Shown: in pieces, positions 1,260-43,975 of the stretch | How positions within the stretch are numbered: position 1 is the first letter of the stretch | Layout of the letters: each line of letters opens with the position of its first letter | Virus record (IMG/VR): IMGVR_UViG_2851949629_000006 | Location: 1 to 49,715 of that record | Strand: one strand, 5' to 3' | Length of the DNA stretch: 49,715 nt | Source: a virus | Lineage: Duplodnaviria > Heunggongvirae > Uroviricota > Caudoviricetes | Notes under the pieces: model-generated | Databases searched by the model: none | Seen by the model: the letters and a program-made list of their open reading frames with translations, nothing else | Told to the model about the DNA's origin: nothing | Position numbers and translations under genes: made by a program

Positions 1260-1549
1260 CTATCCTTCCTGGACTTTGGTAAGCGTCAGATTTCCGCAGA
1301 ACACTGCGCCGGTGTCGATGTACATCTGGTTTGCATACACCAGTGGGTGATGTGCTGGCGTATGACCGAAGATGAACAAATCGGCACCGGTTATCTCCGA
1401 GACAATACCGTCCTGCGCGTCGCTAACCCGCTCACGATTCCATATCACCATTTCTTCTGGTACTGGCTTATCGAATGCGTATTCGTTGTGCGGGTAGTCT
1501 GCGTGACAGATGACGACCTTCTTATTGCCGGTAACCAGTTCGATAATCA
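1260..1549 (-). pseudogene. C-terminal fragment of a phage Ser/Thr protein phosphatase (lambda PPase-like), separated from its N-terminal part by the IS66 insertion
   Basis: Translation ...[32 protein letters not shown]...[17 protein letters not shown] matches my recollection of the lambda phosphatase C-terminus. Fragment ends exactly at the IS terminus at 1550. Confidence 0.7.
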
Positions 1550-1579
1550 GTAAGCGTCAACGGAGCACCGTATTGACGC

Positions 1580-2113
1580 TTATTTATTAGTGAGTACTAC
1601 GTTCCATGGCAGGAGTTCGTCAACTCGGTTGGAAGGCCATTCCGGCAGTACGCTCAGGATATGGCGCAGATACGCTTCCGGATCGATACCATTCAACCGG
1701 CAGGTGCCGATCAGCCCGTACAACAGTGCACCACGCTCGCCGCCGTGATCGCTACCGAAGAACACGTAATTTTTCTTTCCGAGACAGACTGCACGAAGCG
1801 CTCTTTCCGCTGTGTTATTGTCCGCCTCCGCCAGACCGTCATCACAGAAGTTGCACAACGCAACCCAGTGCTTCCTGATATACCGGAACGCATCTCTCAG
1901 ACGGCATTTTTTCGATAACGTGTGTTCTTTCTCCTGCATCAGCTTATACAGGGAAGTCAGTAGCGGTTTACTCTGCATTTGCCTGACCGCCAGGCGTTCA
2001 GACACCGGCAACCCGCGTATTTCGTGCTCAATGGCGTACAGTTCGCCGATTAGTTTCAGTGCTTCTTCCGCCGTCGCGCTTTTGGTACTGATATATACAT
2101 CGTGGATTTTGCG
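1580..2113 (-). pseudogene. tnpC: IS66 transposase TnpC, C-terminal fragment of copy 3 (cut by copy 2 insertion)
   Basis: ORF translation aligns with the C-terminal ~140 aa of the full 537-aa TnpC but with substitutions; reading frame runs up to the copy-2 terminus at 2114. Confidence 0.75.
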
Positions 2114-2143
2114 GTAAGCGTTAACGGAGTGCCGTATTGACGC

Positions 2144-3757
2144 TTATTTATTGGTGAGTACTACGTTCCATGGCAGGAGTTCGTCAACTCGGTTGGAAGG
2201 CCATTCCGGCAGTACGCTCAGGATATGGCGCAGATACGCTTCCGGATCGATACCGTTCAGTCGGCAGGTGCTGATCAGCCCGTACAACAGTGCTCCTCGC
2301 TCGCCGCCGTGATCGCTGCCGAAGAACATAAAGTTTTTCTTTCCGAGACAGACTGCACGAAGCGCTCTTTCCGCAGCATTATTATCCGCCTCCGCCAGAC
2401 CGTCATCACTGTAATAACAGAGGGCATCCCACTGATTCAGTACATAGCTGAACGCTTCGCCCAGTCTGGATTTTTTCGACAGCGTACCATTCTTCTCCAC
2501 CATCCATTCATGCAGCGACGTCAGTAACACTTTGCTTCGCTGCTGCCTGACGGCAAGACGCTCTGACTCCGGTAATCCCCGTATTTCATCCTCGATGGCG
2601 TACAGTTCACTGATTCGCTTCAGGGCTTCTTCTGCCGTCGCACTTTTGCTGCTGATGTATACATCGTGGATTTTTCGCCGGGCATGGGCCCAGCACGCAA
2701 CTTCTGTCAGTGCACCACCTTCACGTTCTGCACTGAACAACCTGTCGTAACCTGTGAACGCATCCGCCTGCAGGATACCCCGGAAGGGGCGGAGGTGTTG
2801 CTCCGGGTGTTTCCCCTGCCGGTTCGGCGAGTACGCGAACCAGACCGCTGGAGGAGATGACGAACCCACATTGCGATCATCCCGGACATACGTCCAGATA
2901 CGCCCTGTTTTCGCCTTTTTCTGACCCGGTGCCAGTACCTTTACCGGTGTGTCATCAGTGTGAACCTTGCGGGTGTTCATTACATAACGGTACAGGGCAT
3001 CATTCACCGGTGTCATTAACTGGCAGCACGCGTCAACCCAGTTGGAGAGTAAGGCCCGGCTCAGTTCGACACCCTGGCGGGCAAAGATTTCACTCTGACG
3101 ATACAGTGGCAGATGTTCGCAGTATTTTCCCGTTAACACGCGGGCAAGTAATCCGGGGCCCGCGATACCACGCTCTATCGGGCGGGACGGCGCCGGTGCT
3201 TCAACAATACAGTCACATTTTGTACAGGCTTTTTTTACCCGTTCTGTGCGGATCACTTTCAGGGCACTGCTCACCAGTTCCAGCTGTTCAGCGCTGACTT
3301 CCCCCAGATAATCCAGCTCACCGCCACACTCCGGGCAACAGCTTTCTTCTGGCTCCAGGCGGTGTATTTCACGGGGAAGGTGTGCCGGTAACGGACGACG
3401 ATGGCGCGACTGTCGCAACTGGCGGGGAACCTGAGGATCGTCTTCCCGCCCACTGTAACGATCGCTGTCCTGTTCACGTTGTTTCAGCAGAGCCTCAGCC
3501 AGTTCAACTTCACGACGCAGTTTTTCAGAACGGGTACCGAACAGCATCCGGCGCAGTTTTTCTATCTGAGCCCGCAGATGTTCTATTTCCCGTTCATCTT
3601 CTTCGATCTTTTCTTCGGCACGTGTCAGTGCAGAGCGCAGGAAGGCTTCCGTCTCTTCAACCAGACTCAGTTGCTGGTCTTTCTGACGGAGGGCTTCAGC
3701 CTGCTCAGAGAGCAACCTTTCCAGCTCTGCGATGCGAATGAGGTATTTCTGACTCAT
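2144..3757 (-). CDS. tnpC: IS66 transposase TnpC (copy 2), 537 aa
   Basis: Full-length ORF; translation identical to the copy-1 TnpC; coiled-coil N-terminus, CxxC zinc motif and DDE-type core typical of IS66 TnpC. Confidence 0.85.
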   Translation of the reverse strand: MSQKYLIRIAELERLLSEQAEALRQKDQQLSLVEETEAFLRSALTRAEEKIEEDEREIEHLRAQIEKLRRMLFGTRSEKLRREVELAEALLKQREQDSDRYSGREDDPQVPRQLRQSRHRRPLPAHLPREIHRLEPEESCCPECGGELDYLGEVSAEQLELVSSALKVIRTERVKKACTKCDCIVEAPAPSRPIERGIAGPGLLARVLTGKYCEHLPLYRQSEIFARQGVELSRALLSNWVDACCQLMTPVNDALYRYVMNTRKVHTDDTPVKVLAPGQKKAKTGRIWTYVRDDRNVGSSSPPAVWFAYSPNRQGKHPEQHLRPFRGILQADAFTGYDRLFSAEREGGALTEVACWAHARRKIHDVYISSKSATAEEALKRISELYAIEDEIRGLPESERLAVRQQRSKVLLTSLHEWMVEKNGTLSKKSRLGEAFSYVLNQWDALCYYSDDGLAEADNNAAERALRAVCLGKKNFMFFGSDHGGERGALLYGLISTCRLNGIDPEAYLRHILSVLPEWPSNRVDELLPWNVVLTNK

Positions 3758-3787
3758 GACCGTTTTTATAATGCGGTCAGGAGTTTT

Positions 3788-4070
3788 TTACAACATTGTC
3801 AGTGAGTTACGGCTGGATGTTTTTGGCTGACGCCAGTCCAGCTTATCGAGGAGCATTGCCAGTTGCGAGCGGGTAATGGATACCTTGCCGTCACGTACCG
3901 CAGGCCAGATAAACTGGCCTTCCTCCAGGCGTTTGGTGAACAGGCACAGACCATCAGCATCAGCCCAAAGAATTTTGACGGTGTCACCCCGTCGGCCACG
4001 GAAGATAAACAGGTGACCGGAGAAGGGATTATCATTCAGCACATGTTGTACCTGTTCTCCCAGTCCGTTG
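3788..4070 (-). pseudogene. tnpB: IS66 TnpB (orfB) of copy 2, C-terminal part, cut by copy 1
   Basis: Translation matches residues ~34-116 of intact TnpB (5745-6095); N-terminal remainder is at 6603-6678. Confidence 0.75.
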
Positions 4071-4100
4071 GTAAGCGTTAACGGAGTGCCGTATTGACGC

Positions 4101-5714
4101 TTATTTATTGGTGAGTACTACGTTCCATGGCAGGAGTTCGTCAACTCGGTTGGAAGGCCATTCCGGCAGTACGCTCAGGATATGGCGCAGATACGCTTCC
4201 GGATCGATACCGTTCAGTCGGCAGGTGCTGATCAGCCCGTACAACAGTGCTCCTCGCTCGCCGCCGTGATCGCTGCCGAAGAACATAAAGTTTTTCTTTC
4301 CGAGACAGACTGCACGAAGCGCTCTTTCCGCAGCATTATTATCCGCCTCCGCCAGACCGTCATCACTGTAATAACAGAGGGCATCCCACTGATTCAGTAC
4401 ATAGCTGAACGCTTCGCCCAGTCTGGATTTTTTCGACAGCGTACCATTCTTCTCCACCATCCATTCATGCAGCGACGTCAGTAACACTTTGCTTCGCTGC
4501 TGCCTGACGGCAAGACGCTCTGACTCCGGTAATCCCCGTATTTCATCCTCGATGGCGTACAGTTCACTGATTCGCTTCAGGGCTTCTTCTGCCGTCGCAC
4601 TTTTGCTGCTGATGTATACATCGTGGATTTTTCGCCGGGCATGGGCCCAGCACGCAACTTCTGTCAGTGCACCACCTTCACGTTCTGCACTGAACAACCT
4701 GTCGTAACCTGTGAACGCATCCGCCTGCAGGATACCCCGGAAGGGGCGGAGGTGTTGCTCCGGGTGTTTCCCCTGCCGGTTCGGCGAGTACGCGAACCAG
4801 ACCGCTGGAGGAGATGACGAACCCACATTGCGATCATCCCGGACATACGTCCAGATACGCCCTGTTTTCGCCTTTTTCTGACCCGGTGCCAGTACCTTTA
4901 CCGGTGTGTCATCAGTGTGAACCTTGCGGGTGTTCATTACATAACGGTACAGGGCATCATTCACCGGTGTCATTAACTGGCAGCACGCGTCAACCCAGTT
5001 GGAGAGTAAGGCCCGGCTCAGTTCGACACCCTGGCGGGCAAAGATTTCACTCTGACGATACAGTGGCAGATGTTCGCAGTATTTTCCCGTTAACACGCGG
5101 GCAAGTAATCCGGGGCCCGCGATACCACGCTCTATCGGGCGGGACGGCGCCGGTGCTTCAACAATACAGTCACATTTTGTACAGGCTTTTTTTACCCGTT
5201 CTGTGCGGATCACTTTCAGGGCACTGCTCACCAGTTCCAGCTGTTCAGCGCTGACTTCCCCCAGATAATCCAGCTCACCGCCACACTCCGGGCAACAGCT
5301 TTCTTCTGGCTCCAGGCGGTGTATTTCACGGGGAAGGTGTGCCGGTAACGGACGACGATGGCGCGACTGTCGCAACTGGCGGGGAACCTGAGGATCGTCT
5401 TCCCGCCCACTGTAACGATCGCTGTCCTGTTCACGTTGTTTCAGCAGAGCCTCAGCCAGTTCAACTTCACGACGCAGTTTTTCAGAACGGGTACCGAACA
5501 GCATCCGGCGCAGTTTTTCTATCTGAGCCCGCAGATGTTCTATTTCCCGTTCATCTTCTTCGATCTTTTCTTCGGCACGTGTCAGTGCAGAGCGCAGGAA
5601 GGCTTCCGTCTCTTCAACCAGACTCAGTTGCTGGTCTTTCTGACGGAGGGCTTCAGCCTGCTCAGAGAGCAACCTTTCCAGCTCTGCGATGCGAATGAGG
5701 TATTTCTGACTCAT
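4101..5714 (-). CDS. tnpC: IS66 transposase TnpC (copy 1), 537 aa
   Basis: Intact ORF, identical to 2144-3757. Confidence 0.85.
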   Translation of the reverse strand: MSQKYLIRIAELERLLSEQAEALRQKDQQLSLVEETEAFLRSALTRAEEKIEEDEREIEHLRAQIEKLRRMLFGTRSEKLRREVELAEALLKQREQDSDRYSGREDDPQVPRQLRQSRHRRPLPAHLPREIHRLEPEESCCPECGGELDYLGEVSAEQLELVSSALKVIRTERVKKACTKCDCIVEAPAPSRPIERGIAGPGLLARVLTGKYCEHLPLYRQSEIFARQGVELSRALLSNWVDACCQLMTPVNDALYRYVMNTRKVHTDDTPVKVLAPGQKKAKTGRIWTYVRDDRNVGSSSPPAVWFAYSPNRQGKHPEQHLRPFRGILQADAFTGYDRLFSAEREGGALTEVACWAHARRKIHDVYISSKSATAEEALKRISELYAIEDEIRGLPESERLAVRQQRSKVLLTSLHEWMVEKNGTLSKKSRLGEAFSYVLNQWDALCYYSDDGLAEADNNAAERALRAVCLGKKNFMFFGSDHGGERGALLYGLISTCRLNGIDPEAYLRHILSVLPEWPSNRVDELLPWNVVLTNK

Positions 5715-5744
5715 GACCGTTTTTATAATGCGGTCAGGAGTTTT

Positions 5745-6095
5745 TTACAACATTGTCAGTGAGTTACGGCGGGATGTTTTTGGCTGACGCCAGTCCAGTT
5801 TATCGAGGAGCATTGCCAGTTGCGAGCGGGTAATGGATACCTTGCCGTCACGTACCGCAGGCCAGATAAACTGGCCTTCCTCCAGGCGTTTGGTGAACAG
5901 GCACAGACCATCAGCATCAGCCCAAAGAATTTTGACGGTGTCACCCCGTCGGCCACGGAAGATAAACAGGTGACCGGAGAAGGGATTATCATTCAGCACA
6001 TGTTGTACCTGTTCTCCCAGTCCGTTGAAGGATTTACGCATATCGGTAACGCCGGCAACGAGCCAGATACGGGTACCTGATGGGAGTGAGATCAT
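5745..6095 (-). CDS. tnpB: IS66 accessory protein TnpB (orfB), copy 1
   Basis: 116-aa ORF between tnpA and tnpC, 4-bp overlap with tnpA; typical IS66 orfB size and position. Confidence 0.8.
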   Translation of the reverse strand: MISLPSGTRIWLVAGVTDMRKSFNGLGEQVQHVLNDNPFSGHLFIFRGRRGDTVKILWADADGLCLFTKRLEEGQFIWPAVRDGKVSITRSQLAMLLDKLDWRQPKTSRRNSLTML

Positions 6096-6517
6096 CTTCC
6101 CCTCCCGGTCAGTTCACGGATCAACACTGTGAGCAGCTCTGGCGATGGATTTTCCAGCGTCATGTTACCGTGACGGAATTCCACCTTGCAGGAACTGGCA
6201 CTGACTCTGGTCTGAGTGGAAGTGGATAAAGACGGCGCAATGGCCGCCACAGGTTCTTTCTGCTCATCCGGCGTTATTTCTACAGGTAATAATTCAACGC
6301 CAGTGTCAGAAGAGGTCGTTACCGGAAGACGCCGCGAAACACGCCCTTCGTTCTGCCAGAGCCTGAGCCATTTGAAAATAACATTATCATTGACGCCATT
6401 TTCACGTGCAATCTGTGCAACACAAGCTCCAGGTTGTGATGCCAGTTCCACCATACGAAGTTTGAATTCATTCGAATAGTTTTTACGAGGTTCTTTTCGC
6501 CAGTCCTGTAATTCCAT
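6092..6517 (-). CDS. tnpA: IS66 accessory protein TnpA (orfA), copy 1
   Basis: 141-aa ORF with a helix-turn-helix region (NEFKLRMVELASQPGACVAQIARENGV); first gene of the IS66 operon. Confidence 0.8.
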   Translation of the reverse strand: MELQDWRKEPRKNYSNEFKLRMVELASQPGACVAQIARENGVNDNVIFKWLRLWQNEGRVSRRLPVTTSSDTGVELLPVEITPDEQKEPVAAIAPSLSTSTQTRVSASSCKVEFRHGNMTLENPSPELLTVLIRELTGRGR

Positions 6518-6602
6518 ACTTAGATGTCCGTCTATATCAGATGGGCGTCTAAGTTACCAATTCTCGTCTGATGGCTACATACGGCGGTCAGTTTACGCTT
6601 AC

Positions 6603-6678
6603 GTCCGTTGAAGGATTTACGCATATCGGTAACGCCGGCAACGAGCCAGATACGGGTACCTGATGGGAGTGAGATCAT
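6603..6678 (-). pseudogene. tnpB: IS66 TnpB (orfB) of copy 2, N-terminal 25 codons, continues at 3788-4070
   Basis: Reverse complement encodes MISLPSGTRIWLVAGVTDMRKSFNG, identical to the TnpB N-terminus; interrupted at the GTCCGTTG duplication. Confidence 0.75.
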
Positions 6679-7100
6679 CTTCCCCTCCCGGTCAGTTCAC
6701 GGATCAACACTGTGAGCAGCTCTGGCGATGGATTTTCCAGCGTCATGTTACCGTGACGGAATTCCACCTTGCAGGAACTGGCACTGACTCTGGTCTGAGT
6801 GGAAGTGGATAAAGACGGCGCAATGGCCGCCACAGGTTCTTTCTGCTCATCCGGCGTTATTTCTACAGGTAATAATTCAACGCCAGTGTCAGAAGAGGTC
6901 GTTACCGGAAGACGCCGCGAAACACGCCCTTCGTTCTGCCAGAGCCTGAGCCATTTGAAAATAACATTATCATTGACGCCATTTTCACGTGCAATCTGTG
7001 CAACACAAGCTCCAGGTTGTGATGCCAGTTCCACCATACGAAGTTTGAATTCATTCGAATAGTTTTTACGAGGTTCTTTTCGCCAGTCCTGTAATTCCAT
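6675..7100 (-). CDS. tnpA: IS66 accessory protein TnpA (orfA), copy 2
   Basis: Identical translation to 6092-6517. Confidence 0.8.
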   Translation of the reverse strand: MELQDWRKEPRKNYSNEFKLRMVELASQPGACVAQIARENGVNDNVIFKWLRLWQNEGRVSRRLPVTTSSDTGVELLPVEITPDEQKEPVAAIAPSLSTSTQTRVSASSCKVEFRHGNMTLENPSPELLTVLIRELTGRGR

Positions 7101-7185
7101 ACTTAGATGTCCGTCTATATCAGATGGGCGTCTAAGTTACCAATTCTCGTCTGATGGCTACATACGGCGGTCAGTTTACGCTTAC

Positions 7186-8273
7186 ATTTTGCGCCGCGCA
7201 TGAGCCCAGCATCCTGCTTCCGTCAACGCGCCGCCTTCACGTTCGGCACTGAACAGCCGATCGTAACCTGCGAACGCATCTGCCTGCAGGATACCCCGGA
7301 AGGGACGAAGGTGTTGCTCCGGATGTTTACCCTGATGGTCCGGTGAGTAGGCGAACCAGACCGCCGGAGGTTCTGGCGAACCGGCATTTCGGTCATCCCG
7401 GACATACGTCCAGATATATCCTGTTTTCGCCTTCTTCCTGCCCGGTGCCAGTACTTTTACTGGTGTGTCATCAGTGTGAACCTTGCGGGTGTTCATCACA
7501 TAACTGTACAGGGCATCATTCAGCGGAGTCATTAACTGGCAGCACGCATCAACCCAGTTGGAGAGTAAGGCACGGCTCAGTTCGACACCCTGGCGGGCAA
7601 AGATTTCACTCTGACGATACAGTGGCAGGTGTTCGCAGTATTTTCCCGTTAACACGCGGGCAAGTAACCCCGGGCCCGCGATACCACGCTCTATCGGACG
7701 GGATGGTGCCGGTGCTTCAACGATGCAGTCACATTTTGTACAGGCTTTTTTTACCCGTTCTGTGCGGATCACTTTCAGGGCGCTGCTCACCAGCTCCAGT
7801 TGTTCTGCGCTGACTTCCCCCAGATAATCCAGCTCACCGCCACACTCCGGGCAACAGCTTTCTTCAGGCTCCAGGCGGTATATTTCACGGGGGAGATGTG
7901 CCGGTAACGGACGACGATGGCGCGACTGTCGCAACTGGCGGGGAACCAGCGGGTCATCCTCACGCCCACTGTAACGATCGCTTTCCTGCTCGCGTTGTTT
8001 CAGCAGGACTTCAGCCTGTTCAACCTCACTACGCAGTTTTTCAGAACGGGTTCCGAACAGCATCCGGCGCAGTTTTTCTATCTGAGCCCGCAGATGCTCT
8101 ATTTCTCGCTCATCTTCTTCGATCTTTTCTTCGGCACGTGCCAGTGCAGAGCGCAGGAAGGCCTCCGTCTCTTCAACCAGACTCAGTTGCTGGTCTTTCT
8201 GACGGAGGGCTTCAGCCTGCTCAGAGAGCAGCCTTTCCAGCTCAGCGATGCGAATGAGGTATTTCTGACCCAT
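7186..8273 (-). pseudogene. tnpC: IS66 transposase TnpC of copy 3, N-terminal ~360 codons (cut by copy 2)
   Basis: Translation MGQKYLIRIAELERLL... is a diverged homolog of copy 1/2 TnpC; ORF runs into the copy-2 terminus and stops 4 nt inside it. Confidence 0.75.
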
Positions 8274-8303
8274 GGCCGTTTTTATAATCCGGCCCGGCGT
8301 TTT

Positions 8304-8654
8304 TTACAACATTGTCAGTGCGTTAAGGCGGGATGTTTTTGGCTGACGCCAGTCCAGCTTATCGAGGAGCATTGCCAGTTGCGAGCGGGTAATGGATATC
8401 TTACCGTCATGCACCGCAGGCCAGATAAACTGACCTTCCTCAAGGCGTTTGGTGAACAGGCACAGACCATCAGCATCAGCCCACAGGATTTTAATCGTGT
8501 CTCCCCGTCGGCCACGGAAGATAAACAGGTGACCGGAGAAGGGGTTATCATCCAGCACATGCTGTATCTGCTCCCCCAGACCGTTGAAGGATTTACGCAT
8601 ATCAGTAACGCCGGCAACGAGCCAGATACGGGTACCTGATGGGAGTGAAATCAT
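8304..8654 (-). CDS. tnpB: IS66 accessory protein TnpB (orfB), copy 3
   Basis: 116-aa ORF, diverged homolog of copy-1 TnpB. Confidence 0.8.
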   Translation of the reverse strand: MISLPSGTRIWLVAGVTDMRKSFNGLGEQIQHVLDDNPFSGHLFIFRGRRGDTIKILWADADGLCLFTKRLEEGQFIWPAVHDGKISITRSQLAMLLDKLDWRQPKTSRLNALTML

Positions 8655-9088
8655 CGTCCCCTCCCGGTCAGCTCACGGATCAACACCGTGAGCAGCTCTG
8701 GTGAAGGATTTTCCAGCATCATTTTACCGTAATGGAATTCCACATGGCAGGAAGCTGCACAAGCAACTGATAATGCCTCCGGAGCAGGAGCATCTGTAGC
8801 ACAGCGCGGGGTGTCGATAAGTTCCACTGGAACCAGAGTCGGAGAGGCCGGAAAAGATTGTGATACTGTAGGGCCTACAATAGTTGGAGGCATTCTACGA
8901 GAAATACGTCCTTCTCTTTGCCAGAGGCGTAGCCATTTAAAAATCAGGTTGTTATCAACGCCATGTTCCCGGGCCAGTTGTGCAACATTGGCATTTGGTT
9001 TCGAAGCCAGTTCAACCATATGAAGTTTAAATTCATTAGAAAATATCCGGCGGGTTCCGGAGCGCCAGTCTGTAGGTTTATCCATCAA
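8651..9088 (-). CDS. tnpA: IS66 accessory protein TnpA (orfA), copy 3
   Basis: 145-aa ORF, diverged homolog of copy-1 TnpA (conserved NEFKL.MVELAS and FKWLRLWQ segments). Confidence 0.8.
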   Translation of the reverse strand: MMDKPTDWRSGTRRIFSNEFKLHMVELASKPNANVAQLAREHGVDNNLIFKWLRLWQREGRISRRMPPTIVGPTVSQSFPASPTLVPVELIDTPRCATDAPAPEALSVACAASCHVEFHYGKMMLENPSPELLTVLIRELTGRGR

Positions 9089-9170
9089 TAGAACTCCGTC
9101 TAATTTAGAAGGAGCTCTAATTTAGTCTGCAAGGAGCAGGTGTTACAGACGGCATTGGCTTTACGCTTAC

Positions 9171-13461: not shown

Positions 13462-14046
13462 TTATTGTTTGTTTTTTTCGTTCTGGTTGATGACAAATTC
13501 AATGTAACTTTCGATCTTTGCCTTCTCTGTTTCAGGTAACAATGCGTAGCGCGAGCGGTCATAGTTGATAGTCGCGGGGTCGTGCGGGTGAATCAGTAAT
13601 TCATAGCCGTGACGCCCGAATGCGGATGCAACATTCTCCAGGGTGGAAATGGAAACGCTGACCTCATTGTTTAACAGGCGGCTGATTGTCACCTGGGCGA
13701 CGCCGGATGCGCGGTGAAGTTTTCCCTGAGTTGAAAGGTCGCGGCTTTCGCTCATCCAGCGTTCCAGGTTGTGAGCCGCCAGCTGACCAATGTCGCTTGG
13801 GCCGACAGGCTGAAAACCTTCCTGAGAAAGCGAGCGATCGATATCAAGCCAGTTACGGGGTTTATTGGCGGCAGCTTCAATTTTTCGCGCAACCTGGTCG
13901 CCGATAACCTTCTTGCCAAGAGCCCAGCGGTTTACCAGATTTGCCTGAGTTCCAAGTTTTTCTGCCATCCGCGTCTGAACACCATTGAATTCACGGTCGA
14001 TCAAGTCGTTGAGATTTTGCCTGCGGACGTCCTGGATACTTTTCAT
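13462..14046 (-). CDS. prophage repressor with two HTH domains and no S24 peptidase domain
   Basis: Sits between the O_L and O_R palindrome clusters, divergent from the cro-like gene. Two HTH-like segments (TRMAEKLGTQANLVNRW and GVAQVTISRLLNNE). No Ser-Lys autocleavage domain recognisable. Confidence 0.6.
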   Translation of the reverse strand: MKSIQDVRRQNLNDLIDREFNGVQTRMAEKLGTQANLVNRWALGKKVIGDQVARKIEAAANKPRNWLDIDRSLSQEGFQPVGPSDIGQLAAHNLERWMSESRDLSTQGKLHRASGVAQVTISRLLNNEVSVSISTLENVASAFGRHGYELLIHPHDPATINYDRSRYALLPETEKAKIESYIEFVINQNEKNKQ

Positions 14047-40337: not shown

Positions 40338-40634
40338 ATGCAAGCTATAGGATTCATTGTTTATATCGTCGTTGGTCTTTTTCAGTTGGCAGCAATTATG
40401 GCTGGGCTTGAATCATGGTGGGGATTGCACTGGATAATTGCAGCCCCCATTGCTTTCATCGTGAGCTATATTCCATTTGTTGGAGCGATTGTTGGTATGG
40501 TTGGCGCTGTGGATGTATGGCGGTGGGAGTGGTGGCAGGCTGGCCTTCTCTTCTTTGGTGGGATCATCTTTGCTATTGTCTGCGGTGGAATGTCATCATT
40601 TTTCGAACGGCTATCATTCAGAAAAGGAACGTGA
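40338..40634 (+). CDS. integral membrane protein (98 aa, about 3 TM segments)
   Basis: ATG with AGGTGA RBS; hydrophobic throughout; followed by an intrinsic terminator. Confidence 0.5.
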   Translation: MQAIGFIVYIVVGLFQLAAIMAGLESWWGLHWIIAAPIAFIVSYIPFVGAIVGMVGAVDVWRWEWWQAGLLFFGGIIFAIVCGGMSSFFERLSFRKGT

Positions 40635-40728: not shown

Positions 40729-41268
40729 TTACCAAAACTTGTACCACGGGGATTTATCCTTCAATGGACAATCCTTCCATCGTGTGGCCAACCATTCATA
40801 TTCTTTAAAATATGTGTTTATGTTTTCTTTTTCTCTAATAGCTTGTATAAGAGGTAGCGCAATCTGATAGTTATTTACAACGGAGCTGTAAAATACTTCC
40901 TTAATCATGGTCTCATCATAAGTTTTCCGCTTCACGCTCACAGCCATGCGTTCGTAGAAACCTAGACAGTAAATTATTTCTCTCTTCTCTATCTTTTCTT
41001 CATCCGTAAGATCAGCCTGCCCATTGCTTGGATACATATAAGAGCGGAATGATTTGTTCGATTCGTGAATGCGGCGCATAGTAGATAGGCCTTTCTTATA
41101 ATCTACATCAAACCTGCTTTCACCAAGGAATACTGAAGTGTGTACTTTTCTCGCTGTATTTACATTATAAATAATAGTAGCGATAGCTATGAACAAGCCA
41201 AGCGAAACCGCGACTGCACTTACGATTTGAGCCACAGCCATGGCAAATTGCATTTCTTCACTTAACAC
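40729..41268 (-). CDS. N-terminally membrane-anchored protein (179 aa), accessory gene
   Basis: GTG start with GGAGA RBS; one N-terminal TM helix (FAMAVAQIVSAVAVSLGLFIAIATIIY) then a soluble domain; AT-rich codon usage. Confidence 0.5.
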   Translation of the reverse strand: MLSEEMQFAMAVAQIVSAVAVSLGLFIAIATIIYNVNTARKVHTSVFLGESRFDVDYKKGLSTMRRIHESNKSFRSYMYPSNGQADLTDEEKIEKREIIYCLGFYERMAVSVKRKTYDETMIKEVFYSSVVNNYQIALPLIQAIREKENINTYFKEYEWLATRWKDCPLKDKSPWYKFW

Positions 41269-41485: not shown

Positions 41486-42142
41486 TCAGAAGAACCCTGC
41501 CTTGTCGTTGATGTACTCCGCGTGAGTCTGGATATCACGCAGGCATTTGCTCACACCGACGATGTAGCAGAACATGGTGGTCAGCTCCGCCGCCGCGCCC
41601 GATACGTCGTGCCCGTCGTCCTGTAACTGGTTCAGCAGATTCATCAGCAGTGAGTTCTCCGTCAGGCCGAGAACACCAGACGGAGAATGAATCAGACTGC
41701 GGTAGCCAGGCTTCAGTGGGGCGCTGTATTCTTTTTTGTCTTCCAGCTTGATCGCCTCCATAATGGCGGGCATGAAGCCTGACAAGACCTTCTCCACTTT
41801 TGTTTCTTGTTGTCTTAAACGTTTCTCGCATTCAATGAAGTAGCGTCGCACCTGGCGACCTTTTTCGTTACGCTCGACCATTGCCAGCTCTTTGGCTGTA
41901 TCGAGGGTGAGGTGGTACTCTTTGCGGTTGTGGCCGCCTCTACCAGATGTTTGCTTTCCCAAATTGGAAAGCAAAATATAGTCTTGATTTTCAATGAATT
42001 CGTATTCTGAAATTCGATTTGTAATCCATGCTGCAAACACCTTTTTAACACCTAAAAAAGCGTGCAGATCGCGGGCATTACAAAGTAGGGCTGTTTCGTT
42101 AGATATAGTGCCGTTGAATACGGGGATGAGTTGAGCGTTCAT
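41486..42142 (-). CDS. antirepressor (AntA/Ant-like)
   Basis: 218 aa; N-terminal ...[22 protein letters not shown]... and ...[35 protein letters not shown]... resemble the AntA/AntB N-terminal domain. GGAG RBS. Confidence 0.6.
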
Positions 42143-42296
42143 GATGGTGTCTCCACTTAGCGAATTACATCACCACCGCAACGCCAATTACTGGTGGTGA
42201 ACTGAACAAGGTTGGCGTACCGGCCTAAGTGGTACCGGCGTCCTTTCGGACCCCTGCCCAGCCCACCATAATTCGGATATAGCTGTGCTTAACGCA

Positions 42297-42320
42297 TAAA
42301 AAAACCACGTCTGGCGTGGT
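42297..42320 (-). terminator. intrinsic terminator/attenuator within the ant leader (or 3' end of a small RNA)
   Basis: Minus strand reads ACCACG-CCAGA-CGTGGT followed by seven T (plus strand A-run 42298-42304); located about 110 nt downstream of the predicted ant promoter and about 150 nt upstream of the ant start codon. Confidence 0.5.
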
Positions 42321-42410
42321 ATGCGCCACTTAGTAACTCGGGACGCCAATCCCGGCACTGGATTTTGCCAGTGCCCGATTACTATGGCACAAGAGGAGTG
42401 CGATGTAAAT

Positions 42411-42533
42411 TTACCGTAAAGGTAATAATAAATGCATAACTCACGTTATTTCAACCCTATGTGGTTTGATTGATCCCATTTCAGAAAATACCTGCCTATT
42501 TTTTTGCCAGTATGCGTATACTTTCGATAGAAT
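42411..42533. promoter_or_regulatory. divergent promoter region: operator TTACCGTAAAGGTAA (42411-42425), motif TATGTGGTT (42458-42466), and a plus-strand sigma70-like promoter TTGCCA-17bp-TAGAAT (42505-42533)
   Basis: Operator identical in form to O_L/O_R; on the minus strand a TTGAAA -35 with the -10 overlapping the operator is positioned to drive the ant leader. Confidence 0.5.
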
Positions 42534-42562
42534 GTTAACCCTAGAGGTAGTTGGGGGTGCCC

Positions 42563-43066
42563 ATGAACACGAAGAGAGTTGCAGCGATGAGGCATAGACG
42601 CTTGACCTTGAAAAAGTCTGAAAAAGAAAAAGAGAAAAAGATGGTGATTGAAGCAGCCGCCATAGCAACTGCCAATGCCATCAGGATTCATGATGAAGAA
42701 GTTGAGCAAAAATACCCGGTTATGTTCATCACTGAATACGACCAGCATGAGGCATTGTTAAAAATCCGGGGCACATCTTTTGAAGGAATCTTGGCAGATA
42801 AGCTTCATCGTGCCTCATGTCAAACGAATATAATGCGACCTTACGAGTCAAGGCTAATCGAAACTGGACGCTCCAAGGATAAGCAGCAATTAGTTGAGAT
42901 GATAAAGCGGTATTATAAGTCATCTTTTAAGCCTACAGCGTCACATGAGGTTGTAATGCGAGAAGTACCAAAGATGTCTGTTGAAAAATCGCATGCAATC
43001 TCGCGCAGGATGTTTGCACGCACTGCTGAAGATATGGCTCAGGAGCTCTACGACGATGCCGAATAA
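42563..43066 (+). CDS. hypothetical protein, upstream partner of the YafO-like gene (candidate antitoxin/immunity)
   Basis: 167 aa from the ATG at 42563 (ORF track starts at TTG 42551); basic N-terminus; stop overlaps the downstream start (ATGCCGAATAA). Confidence 0.45.
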   Translation: MNTKRVAAMRHRRLTLKKSEKEKEKKMVIEAAAIATANAIRIHDEEVEQKYPVMFITEYDQHEALLKIRGTSFEGILADKLHRASCQTNIMRPYESRLIETGRSKDKQQLVEMIKRYYKSSFKPTASHEVVMREVPKMSVEKSHAISRRMFARTAEDMAQELYDDAE

Positions 43067-43562
43067 ATTCCAGGGGTTGGTTCACCCTGGAATTTTTGGG
43101 AAGGACCCTGAGCTAATACCTATCAAAAACGCGTTCATAGATCACTGGCGCTACGGTCATCATAAGGATTTCGGAAAGGACACTCTGTTTCGGGATCCAC
43201 CGAAAGAGATGCTGGAATATCACATACGCCACGTTCACGTAAACATCGGAAACTATACTGACAAGTTTGGTGAGAGCGGTACGGAACAATGCTGGAAAAA
43301 CTGGGCATCCGGGAAGAAAGACAAGACCACCAACAAGCATAAAAAAATACCAACCAGTGATGTATATGTGATTTATCTTGTAACGTCTGAGCGACATGCG
43401 TTTCTTCTGGATTACTGGGATGAGCCAGCACACAAAAAAGTAGAAATTGACGAACAGAAACAAAAACTTCTTGTCGAGTGTGACAGAATTTTGCGGCGGA
43501 AAAATTTAGAATCCATGCCGCGCGATGCAAGTTTGTGGGACCCGGAATTTTACGACTGTTAA
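43056..43562 (+). CDS. YafO-family toxin-like protein (candidate type II toxin)
   Basis: 168 aa; segments HHKDFGKDTLFRDP and YHIRHVHVNIGN resemble the YafO segments DTFGRDALYDD and ERVAHIHLANE as I recall them. Confidence 0.45.
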   Translation: MPNKFQGLVHPGIFGKDPELIPIKNAFIDHWRYGHHKDFGKDTLFRDPPKEMLEYHIRHVHVNIGNYTDKFGESGTEQCWKNWASGKKDKTTNKHKKIPTSDVYVIYLVTSERHAFLLDYWDEPAHKKVEIDEQKQKLLVECDRILRRKNLESMPRDASLWDPEFYDC

Positions 43563-43563
43563 T

Positions 43564-43581
43564 GGCCGCTTTCGCGGCCTT
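43564..43581. terminator. hairpin GGCCGCTTTCGCGGCCTT between convergent genes (second copy of the 40644 hairpin)
   Basis: Exact 18-bp repeat of 40644-40661; 6-bp GC stem with TTTC loop; T-rich flank. Confidence 0.5.
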
Positions 43582-43586
43582 TAAAT

Positions 43587-43862
43587 TTACCGGGTTTGTT
43601 TTCGTAATTGTTCGGCACAATAGTCGAGATGTGTTTGCAGATCCTGCATAGACATCTGTGAGCTGGTGACGTAGTTAATCAGTGCAGTCAGTTCGGCAAG
43701 TGGGCCATCGACATTAAATCCATCCTTATCGAGATCCCGGAGTAATTTCATCAAGTGCGATCCCTCCACCAGTGACCTGACGCCTCCCGGCGTGTGAATC
43801 CTTTCGGTAAATCCGTCTTCCAGTGGATAGTGATACCGCTGCATCTTATCTTCTCCATGCAA
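43587..43862 (-). CDS. small protein paralogous to the antirepressor C-terminal domain
   Basis: 91 aa; ...TPGGVRSLVEGSHLMKLLRDLDKDGFNVDGPLAELTALINYV...MQDLQTHLDY... parallels ...[42 protein letters not shown]...[10 protein letters not shown]... of the 41486-42142 product. Confidence 0.5.
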   Translation of the reverse strand: MHGEDKMQRYHYPLEDGFTERIHTPGGVRSLVEGSHLMKLLRDLDKDGFNVDGPLAELTALINYVTSSQMSMQDLQTHLDYCAEQLRKQTR

Positions 43863-43920
43863 TAACTGTATAAATATACAGTACCAAATAATTTATTGTC
43901 TATCCAGCACGTTTTGCAAA

Positions 43921-43975
43921 TCACCTGAAAGGTAATATCTGTTCGTATTCACAGTCTGTCTATCCATATGTGGTT
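43921..43975. promoter_or_regulatory. divergent promoter region with operator TCACCTGAAAGGTAA (43921-43935) and motif CCATATGTGGTT (43964-43975)
   Basis: Between the Ant-C-like gene (minus) and the tail fibre gene (plus). Confidence 0.5.

What the first reader, a model, noticed from the sequence alone, without database searches (positions are those of the whole stretch)
43587..43862. Stand-alone paralog of the antirepressor C-terminal domain
A 91-aa ORF reproduces the C-terminal about 80 residues of the 218-aa antirepressor at roughly 35-40% identity by eye. It has its own operator-bearing promoter region and is convergent with the YafO-like cassette. It could be a second antirepressor specificity module, a remnant of module exchange, or a competitive regulator of Ant.
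Basis: seen in the sequence. Interest (0 to 1): 0.45.

Follow-up and report, generated by a model that had tools for sequence, protein, structure and literature searches.

The report
Known SOS-controlled small phage antirepressor Ant
The small gene is the E. coli version of an already characterised phage protein (Ant of Salmonella phage SPC32H) that is made after DNA damage and switches a dormant virus on by disabling its repressor, so the finding is real but ordinary.

Summary
The small ORF aligns with residues 134-210 of the 218-aa AntA protein at 44% identity over 78 aa (E 5e-16). The real CDS is 43587..43844(-), 85 aa, starting at a conserved ATG. It is not an orphan paralog. It is the orthologue of Ant of Salmonella phage SPC32H (PDB 5D50 chain E, E 1.4e-46, 88% identity). 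It sits at the same place as in epsilon15/phiV10-like phages (Uetakevirus), divergent from the tail-fibre gene. A near-consensus LexA box (43864..43883) overlaps its promoter, at the position where SPC32N carries its single-base change. The window also encodes the partner repressor Rep (13462..14046-, PDB 5D50_A, E 9e-42), which has an HTH but no autocleavage domain. dN/dS of 0.05-0.06 shows a working gene, not a remnant. The 218-aa protein is the accessory one. Its N-domain is swappable (AntA or Bro-N) on a constant Ant-like C-domain, behind an isrK/C4 RNA leader and a conserved Rep-operator-like site. That suggests a cascade: LexA, small Ant, Rep off, long Ant. The cascade is inferred, not shown. 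Verdict: already known and mis-annotated as hypothetical; low interest.

The parts
43587..43844 (-). ant (small): 85-aa SPC32H-type antirepressor CDS, with its true start at the ATG at 43844.
   Evidence: PDB 5D50_E 'Anti-repressor protein', E 1.4e-46. 88% identical to SPC32H Ant. phrog_450, 8e-48. Conserved ATG and RBS. dN/dS 0.05-0.06.
43864..43883 (.). LexA (SOS) box, AACTGTATAAATATACAGTA on the + strand. It overlaps the -10 element of the ant promoter.
   Evidence: Exact CTGT-N8-ACAG. 18/20 match to TACTGTATATATATACAGTA, with 0.00 expected by chance. Conserved in 6 phages; SPC32N carries a C>A change in the ACAG half-site. A box at -37/-38 from the ATG in 77 of 78 related IMG/VR loci that have upstream sequence.
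43873..43902 (-). Putative ant promoter: -35 TAGACA (43902..43897), 18-nt spacer, -10 TATATT (43878..43873).
   Evidence: Consensus scan, 10 of 12 matches. This is a pattern match only.
43853..43856 (-). Ribosome-binding site GGAG, 8 nt upstream of the ATG.
   Evidence: Read from the sequence. Conserved in relatives.
43920..43936 (.). Rep-operator-like 17-mer ATCACCTGAAAGGTAAT (consensus ATTACC-N5-GGTAAT), upstream of the -35 element of the ant promoter, between ant and the tail-fibre gene.
   Evidence: 16 sites with at most 2 mismatches in the window, against 1.2 expected. The syntenic site in the epsilon15 GenBank record is annotated 'repressor, lysogeny'. Conserved in alignment A1.
43564..43579 (.). 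GC-rich hairpin GGCCGC-TTTC-GCGGCC between the convergent YafO-like gene and ant. The T-run follows only on the + strand.
   Evidence: Terminator scan and the sequence itself.
13462..14046 (-). rep: 194-aa prophage repressor, the presumed target of Ant.
   Evidence: PDB 5D50_A 'Repressor', E 9e-42 over the full length. 42% identical to SPC32H Rep. 100% identical to phiV10 Rep. HTH_3 only, no Peptidase_S24.
41486..42142 (-). Long Ant, 218 aa: AntA N-domain (residues 22-92) plus an Ant-like C-domain (about residues 128-218, nt 41489..41761).
   Evidence: PF08346, 4.2e-26. phmmer against PDB 5D50_E, E 8.2e-14, residues 137-213. Alignment A2.
42190..42273 (-). C4 antisense RNA in the leader of the long ant gene.
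   Evidence: Rfam RF01695, 64.7 bits against a gathering score of 45. Also present in phiV10, TL-2011b, Tyrion and phiv142-3.
42298..42374 (-). isrK-type Hfq-binding sRNA with its own terminator (42304..42320 plus a T-run).
   Evidence: Rfam RF01394, 67.2 bits against a gathering score of 50. Terminator scan. Present in relatives.
42381..42426 (-). Putative isrK promoter (-35 TTTACA 42409..42404, TG-extended -10 CATAGT 42386..42381), abutted by a Rep-operator-like 17-mer at 42410..42426.
   Evidence: The operator half-sites are invariant and the spacer varies in 5 phages.

Best explanation
The ORF is the ant gene of an epsilon15/phiV10-like (Uetakevirus) prophage of E. coli. It is an 85-aa, SOS-inducible antirepressor orthologous to Ant of Salmonella phage SPC32H. 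The proposed mechanism follows. In the lysogen, host LexA sits on the SOS box that overlaps the -10 element of the ant promoter and keeps ant silent. DNA damage leads to LexA self-cleavage, and Ant is made. Ant, a tetramer in SPC32H, binds the C-terminal tetramerisation/Ant-binding domain of the prophage repressor Rep and breaks the DNA-binding Rep tetramer into dimers. Rep has no RecA-dependent autocleavage domain, so this is how it is inactivated. Rep then leaves its ATTACC-N5-GGTAAT operators and lytic genes are expressed. What is shown here: homology of both partners to the crystallised complex, synteny, the conserved LexA box, purifying selection, and the absence of an S24 domain in Rep. 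What is inferred by homology: LexA binding, Ant-Rep binding and induction. The 218-aa AntA protein is a second, accessory antirepressor that carries the same Ant domain at its C-terminus. It probably fires downstream of the small Ant, because its isrK/C4 leader promoter is abutted by a conserved Rep-operator-like site.
For: The small ORF matches PDB 5D50 chain E (Anti-repressor protein, 86 aa) at E 1.4e-46 over residues 8-90, and is 88% identical to SPC32H Ant by tblastn. The gene order is the same as in relatives: large structural gene, ant in reverse orientation, then tailspike. This order is seen in SPC32H, phiV10, epsilon15 and BUCT711. The LexA box is exact, matches the consensus at 18/20 with 0 expected, and overlaps the -10 element. 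It aligns column for column with the SPC32H box, and SPC32N differs there by C>A in the ACAG half-site. From my own memory of Kim & Ryu 2013, that is the change reported to make Ant constitutive. A box is present at -37/-38 in 77 of 78 related viral loci. The Rep partner is present (5D50_A, E 9e-42) and has only an HTH, with no S24 domain. Rep and small Ant occur in essentially the same phage records, 37 and 35 respectively, with matching genus counts. dN/dS is 0.05-0.06 at dS of about 1.6-1.9. [quoted passage not shown]
Against: Nothing was measured here: no expression data, no LexA binding, no Rep-Ant binding. The window's Rep is only 42% identical to the crystallised SPC32H Rep, so the interface is assumed to be conserved. 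By my count from the alignment, the C-terminal stretch is about 53% identical. The two primary SPC32H papers are not in the held library, so mechanistic details rest on citing papers and on my memory. The Rep-operator-like site near ant lies upstream of the -35 element, so its role at this promoter is unclear.
Confidence: 0.88

Rival explanations
1. The small protein mainly modulates the 218-aa Ant. It could form mixed oligomers with the long Ant's homologous C-domain, or compete with it for Rep.
For: The two share one domain with many invariant residues. The SPC32H Ant is an oligomer, a tetramer (PMC9638917), so hetero-oligomers are conceivable. 71 of 80 related loci carry both genes.
Against: The small Ant occurs and works alone in SPC32H, epsilon15 and BUCT711, which have no long Ant at the locus. 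It has its own LexA box. In phiV10 the long Ant's C-domain is truncated while the small ant is intact.
Confidence: 0.06
2. The ORF is a decaying remnant left by recombination or module exchange with the long ant gene and has no function.
For: Modules are exchanged at this locus: AntA or Bro-N N-domains on one C-domain, a chimeric 84-aa stand-alone form P0402, and the inserted YafO-like cassette.
Against: The ORF is intact, with a conserved RBS, ATG, promoter and LexA box across Escherichia, Salmonella, Enterobacter and Klebsiella phages. dN/dS is 0.05-0.06. The orthologue has been crystallised in complex with Rep.
Confidence: 0.02
3. The small Ant additionally or mainly acts in trans on repressors of other co-resident prophages, as a cross-talk antirepressor like those of Gifsy/Fels-2.
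For: Ant is far more conserved (86-88% identity) than Rep (42%) between the E. coli and Salmonella lineages. That would allow one Ant to act on several Rep types. Cross-talk by antirepressors is documented in Salmonella (PMC7380047).
Against: No second Rep-type repressor was looked for or found in this window. In the phage collection, Rep homologues occur in essentially the same records as Ant. This is an extension of the main model, not an alternative to it.
Confidence: 0.04

Closest known systems
Ant-Rep lytic switch of Salmonella phage SPC32H (Kim & Ryu 2013, J Virol 87:11775; Kim et al. 2016, PNAS 113:E2480; PDB 5D50 and 5D4Z)
   Same: Both proteins are homologous over their full length: Ant at E 1.4e-46 and Rep at E 9e-42. 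The genus, the gene position and the LexA box over the promoter are the same. Rep lacks an S24 domain.
   Different: The host is E. coli. Rep is only 42% identical, being the phiV10 immunity type. This prophage also carries a long Ant, an isrK/C4 leader and a YafO-like cassette between ant and the structural genes, none of which SPC32H has.
phiV10 gp24 and epsilon15 gp19 ('hypothetical protein'), PHROG 450
   Same: These are direct orthologues, 95.6% and 82% identical, at the same position. phrog_450 scores 8e-48.
   Different: There is no biological difference. They are un-annotated, and no Pfam or NCBIfam model covers the domain.
LexA-controlled small antirepressors of other phages (coliphage 186 Tum; Gifsy-1/3 GfoA/GfhA; Fels-2)
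   Same: The logic is the same: a LexA box in front of a small protein that inactivates a non-cleavable repressor (PMC7380047).
   Different: Sequence relatedness was not tested here. The SPC32H authors described their Ant as a distinct class (my memory of the abstract).
isrK-orf45-anrP of Gifsy-1 and the c4-icd-ant immI operon of P1/P7 (relevant to the 218-aa paralog)
   Same: Rfam isrK and C4 RNAs lie directly upstream of the long ant gene. In Gifsy-1 the isrK promoter drives an antirepressor whose translation needs IsrK (PMC4825925).
   Different: Here the cassette sits in a podovirus next to a second, LexA-controlled Ant. Its antirepressor ends in the SPC32H-type Ant domain. No icd or orf45 equivalent was examined.
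vB_EcoP_ZX5 ORF4 anti-repressor (Pathogens 2022, PMC9782041)
   Same: ZX5 is an E. coli Uetakevirus with a Rep 100% identical to the window's. It has a long anti-repressor with a Bro-N N-domain and a second region homologous to the small Ant (PMC9782041). I did not inspect the ZX5 ORF4 sequence, so placing that second region in ORF4 is my assumption. Over-expression lowered the prophage titre from 10^9 to 10^6 PFU/mL.
   Different: Its N-domain is Bro-N, not AntA. That paper does not mention the small Ant or SPC32H.

Membership tests
SPC32H-type small antirepressor (Ant) | Full-length sequence homology to SPC32H Ant (PDB 5D50 chain E), as a stand-alone protein of about 86 aa | tested here: met
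   phmmer E 1.4e-46 over residues 8-90 against 3-85. 88% identity. 85 aa from the conserved ATG.
SPC32H-type small antirepressor (Ant) | LexA-binding site overlapping the ant promoter | tested here: met
   Met in sequence only. Exact CTGT-N8-ACAG, 18/20 to consensus, overlapping the -10 element. It is positionally homologous to the SPC32H box and to the SPC32N mutation. Present in 77 of 78 related loci. Actual LexA binding cannot be tested with these tools.
SPC32H-type small antirepressor (Ant) | Cognate Rep-type repressor in the same genome: an HTH N-domain and a C-terminal tetramerisation/Ant-binding domain, with no RecA-dependent autocleavage domain | tested here: met
   5D50_A at E 9e-42 over the full length, and 5D4Z_A (Rep 92-198) at E 9.5e-20. 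Pfam finds HTH_3 only.
SPC32H-type small antirepressor (Ant) | Conserved genomic position, divergent from the tailspike or tail-fibre gene and downstream of the large internal structural gene | tested here: met
   In the window an extra 3.4 kb of cargo lies between the structural gene and ant.
SPC32H-type small antirepressor (Ant) | Physical binding of Ant to Rep, release of Rep from its operators, and prophage induction on Ant expression | not testable with these tools
   Known for SPC32H only (PMC9638917; PMC9986798).
SPC32H-type small antirepressor (Ant) | Same fold as 5D50_E (checked here for the paralogous C-domain of the 218-aa protein) | tested here: inconclusive
AntA/AntB antirepressor family (PF08346), for the 218-aa paralog | AntA domain scoring above the Pfam gathering threshold | tested here: met
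   91.8 bits against a cut-off of 27, residues 22-92. The small ORF has no AntA domain.
P1-type immI (c4-icd-ant) or Gifsy-1 isrK-anrP cassette, for the 218-aa paralog | C4 antisense RNA and/or isrK sRNA directly upstream of the antirepressor gene | tested here: met
   RF01695 at 64.7 bits and RF01394 at 67.2 bits, both above their gathering scores. Also present in 4 relatives. An icd or orf45 equivalent and the RNA-target pairing were not tested.

The most novel reading that the evidence does not exclude
The prophage runs a two-stage antirepressor relay built from one Rep-binding module. The LexA-gated small Ant gives the first pulse. Removal of Rep then opens the Rep-operator-guarded isrK promoter. 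After IsrK/C4 riboregulation, that promoter delivers a long Ant carrying the same Ant domain on an exchangeable AntA or Bro-N N-domain. The long Ant could lock in the lytic decision or extend it to other repressors or targets, possibly through mixed small/long Ant oligomers. I found no description of this relay in the papers I could search, and the E. coli Uetakevirus paper that I read overlooks the small Ant entirely.
Probability: 0.3. Interest if true: 0.5.

Novelty: already known. Interest (0 to 1): 0.2.

Why it matters
The practical value is in annotation. This 85-aa gene is labelled 'hypothetical protein' in RefSeq E. coli genomes and in most phage records. No Pfam or NCBIfam model covers it. 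Yet it is very probably the SOS trigger for induction of phiV10-like prophages in E. coli, including O157 and other pathogenic strains. Work on these phages has credited the long Bro-N/AntA protein as 'the' antirepressor without noticing the small one (PMC9782041). If the two-Ant relay is real, it would be a compact example of layered control of one lysis-lysogeny switch by protein (LexA, Rep) and RNA (IsrK, C4).

Tried and rejected
1. AlphaFold2 of the full 218-aa protein with a 24-row alignment gave pLDDT 40.5, which is unusable.
3. The exhaustive representative search with alignment A3 was meant to map stand-alone against fused architectures of the Ant domain. The profile kept 211 positions, so the AntA N-domain dominated the hits. 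It was uninformative for that purpose, apart from revealing more diverged AntA proteins that end in an Ant-like domain (P0281, P0297, P0304).
4. A domain-only profile search (A4) listed only stand-alone 85-98-aa proteins among its top 120.
5. The primary SPC32H papers (PMC3807360, PMC4983836) and the epsilon15 genome paper (PMC2698709) are not held.
6. A second CTGT-N8-ACAG at 43939..43954 was considered as a second LexA site. It is absent from phiV10 and the Salmonella phages and present in only 2 of 80 related loci, so I treat it as probably fortuitous.
7. Pfam and NCBIfam gave no YafO hit for the 193-aa ORF. The YafO label rests on the RefSeq annotation of the equivalent gene.

Full report
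**1. Observation.**
The minus-strand ORF 43587..43862 (91 aa from a TTG) is present. BLASTP against the 218-aa protein encoded at 41486..42142(-) gives 44% identity over 78 residues with one gap, E 5e-16, aligning residues 4-81 with 134-210. A phage family profile, phrog_450 (88 positions, 'unknown function'), matches the small ORF end to end (8e-48). It also matches residues 135-216 of the 218-aa protein (5.7e-36). The similarity is therefore real and well beyond chance.

The true start is almost certainly the ATG at 43844. It is preceded by GGAG at 43853..43856, is conserved in all relatives, and gives the 85-86 aa length seen in more than 100 database clusters. The ORF is convergent with a gene that RefSeq calls a YafO-family toxin, and a GC hairpin at 43564..43579 lies between them.

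**2. What the small ORF is.**
The window is an epsilon15/phiV10-like (genus Uetakevirus) prophage of E. coli. It starts at the integrase and is collinear with Salmonella phage SPC32H. The small ORF matches chain E of PDB entry 5D50, 'Anti-repressor protein', 86 aa, at E 1.4e-46. It is 88% identical to the annotated ant gene of SPC32H.

It occupies the same position as in SPC32H, phiV10 (gp24), epsilon15 (gp19) and Klebsiella phage BUCT711. That position is downstream of the large internal structural gene and divergent from the tailspike or tail-fibre gene.

Immediately upstream lies CTGTATAAATATACAG (43866..43881). As a 20-mer (43864..43883) it matches the E. coli SOS-box consensus TACTGTATATATATACAGTA at 18 of 20 positions, and no such match occurred in shuffled sequence. 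It overlaps the -10 hexamer of a promoter-like site, TAGACA-18-TATATT.

In an alignment of six phages the box is positionally conserved. SPC32N differs from SPC32H there by a single C>A in the ACAG half-site. From my memory of Kim & Ryu 2013, that is the reported lesion that makes Ant constitutive; the paper is not in the held library. Among 80 closely related IMG/VR loci, 77 of the 78 that have upstream sequence carry a CTGT-N8-ACAG 37-38 nt before the ATG.

**3. The partner repressor.**
The window encodes a 194-aa repressor (13462..14046-) that matches the SPC32H Rep chain of the same crystal over its full length. The scores are E 9e-42 for 5D50_A and E 9.5e-20 for 5D4Z_A, which is Rep 92-198. 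It is 42% identical to SPC32H Rep and 100% identical to phiV10 Rep. It has an HTH but no S24 autocleavage domain.

Rep and small Ant are found in essentially the same phage records, 37 and 35, with matching counts for Escherichia, Salmonella, Klebsiella and Enterobacter.

A 17-mer, ATTACC-N5-GGTAAT, occurs 16 times in the window with at most 2 mismatches, against 1.2 expected. The sites lie at places syntenic with those the epsilon15 GenBank record labels 'repressor, lysogeny'. One lies at 43920..43936, upstream of the -35 element of the ant promoter.

**4. Is it a remnant?**
No. Nei-Gojobori dN/dS between the window's gene and its SPC32H, epsilon15 and Tyrion orthologues is 0.05-0.06, at dS of about 1.6-1.9. 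This indicates strong purifying selection.

**5. Mechanism (by homology).**
According to held papers, SOS induction and LexA self-cleavage lead to synthesis of Ant, which inactivates the lysogenic repressor by protein-protein contact (PMC7380047). [quoted passage not shown] Rep's C-terminal CAD domain mediates that contact (PMC9986798).

Every sequence-level requirement for this mechanism is present in the window. The binding steps themselves are inferred.

**6. The 218-aa protein is the accessory gene.**
Its N-terminal domain is AntA (PF08346). Its C-terminal 77 residues (137-213) hit 5D50_E at E 8.2e-14.

In related phages the same C-domain, nearly identical in sequence, is joined either to AntA (window, phiv142-3) or to Bro-N (TL-2011b, Tyrion; Pfam). 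In phiV10 the C-domain is cut short. The N-domains are therefore exchanged on a constant Ant-like module.

An 84-aa stand-alone protein (P0402) has a small-Ant-like N-half and a long-Ant-like C-half. More diverged AntA proteins end in a recognisable version of the domain.

71 of 80 related loci carry a second Ant-domain ORF near the small one. Only 11 have the AntA type and only 4 have the YafO-like cassette. The pair is the norm in E. coli members of the group, whereas SPC32H, epsilon15 and BUCT711 have only the small gene at this locus.

**7. How the long Ant is controlled.**
Rfam finds an isrK sRNA (42298..42374-) and a C4 antisense RNA (42190..42273-) in its leader. The same pair is present in phiV10, TL-2011b, Tyrion and phiv142-3.

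The predicted isrK promoter (TTTACA-17-TG-extended CATAGT, 42409..42381) would start transcription at about the Rfam 5' end. It is abutted by a Rep-operator-like 17-mer (42410..42426). The half-sites of that 17-mer are invariant, and its 5-nt spacer varies, in five phages.

In Gifsy-1 the isrK promoter drives a downstream antirepressor whose translation needs IsrK (PMC4825925). In phage ZX5, whose Rep is identical to the window's, over-expression of a long Bro-N anti-repressor lowered the prophage titre about 1000-fold (PMC9782041).

Together these points suggest a relay: LexA, then small Ant, then Rep off, then isrK/C4 and long Ant. This is inference from sequence layout only.

**8. Structure check.**

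**9. Verdict.**
The small ORF is a known, structurally characterised type of SOS-controlled antirepressor, sitting where it always sits in this phage genus. It is mis-annotated as hypothetical and has no Pfam or NCBIfam model. The only modestly new angle is the apparent two-Ant relay with a shared Rep-binding module. Interest is low.

Noticed in passing
window 42190..42374 (-): The leader of the 218-aa ant gene carries an isrK Hfq-binding sRNA (42298..42374) with its own terminator, and a C4 antisense RNA (42190..42273). This is a Gifsy-1 isrK-anrP-like or P1 immI-like riboregulated cassette inside a podovirus. The same pair occurs in phiV10, TL-2011b, Tyrion and phiv142-3.
   Followed up: partly
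window 13327, 13389, 14101, 16401, 16463, 20794, 20812, 24022, 41397, 42410, 43920 (17-mers): ATTACC-N5-GGTAAT sites are strongly over-represented: 16 with at most 2 mismatches against 1.2 expected. They sit in intergenic regions across the prophage, matching the 'repressor' sites of the epsilon15 record. The consensus is shared by E. coli and Salmonella phages whose Reps are only 42% identical.
   Followed up: partly
window 42551..43562 (+): A two-gene cassette lies in opposite orientation between the long and the small ant genes: a 171-aa ORF, and a YafO-family-toxin-like ORF whose likely CDS is 43056..43562. It is present in only 4 of 80 related loci and looks like a recent insertion. E. 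coli strain 2/0 carries two such cassettes flanking its long ant. Pfam and NCBIfam give no hit; the YafO name comes from RefSeq.
   Followed up: partly
window about 1549..9100: A pile-up of IS66-family elements lies next to the integrase. It includes two identical 537-aa transposase ORFs in a perfect 1957-bp tandem repeat (2144..3757 and 4101..5714, both on the - strand), truncated copies (1580..2011, 7182..8273), and duplicated 141-aa HTH_Tnp_1 ORFs. It is either a real IS nest or an assembly artefact.
   Followed up: partly
window 43939..43954: A second exact CTGT-N8-ACAG (CTGTTCGTATTCACAG) lies inside a weaker upstream promoter-like site (43962..43934). It is not conserved in phiV10 or the Salmonella phages and is found in only 2 of 80 related loci, so it is probably fortuitous.
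   Followed up: yes
protein P0402 (84 aa, from a metagenome assembly); L002:4589-5173 (phiV10 gp23): P0402 is a chimeric stand-alone Ant, with a small-Ant-type N-half and a long-Ant-type C-half. phiV10's long Ant has a truncated C-domain. Both point to recombination within the Ant domain itself.
   Followed up: no
window 40729..41268 (-) and 40338..40634 (+): More cargo lies between the 824-aa structural gene and the ant region: a DUF4760 protein (179 aa, phrog_2284) and a 98-aa membrane protein (phrog_3075). Both are of unknown function.
   Followed up: no
window 23627..23700 (-): A tRNA gene lies at the position where SPC32H carries tRNA-Arg.
   Followed up: no
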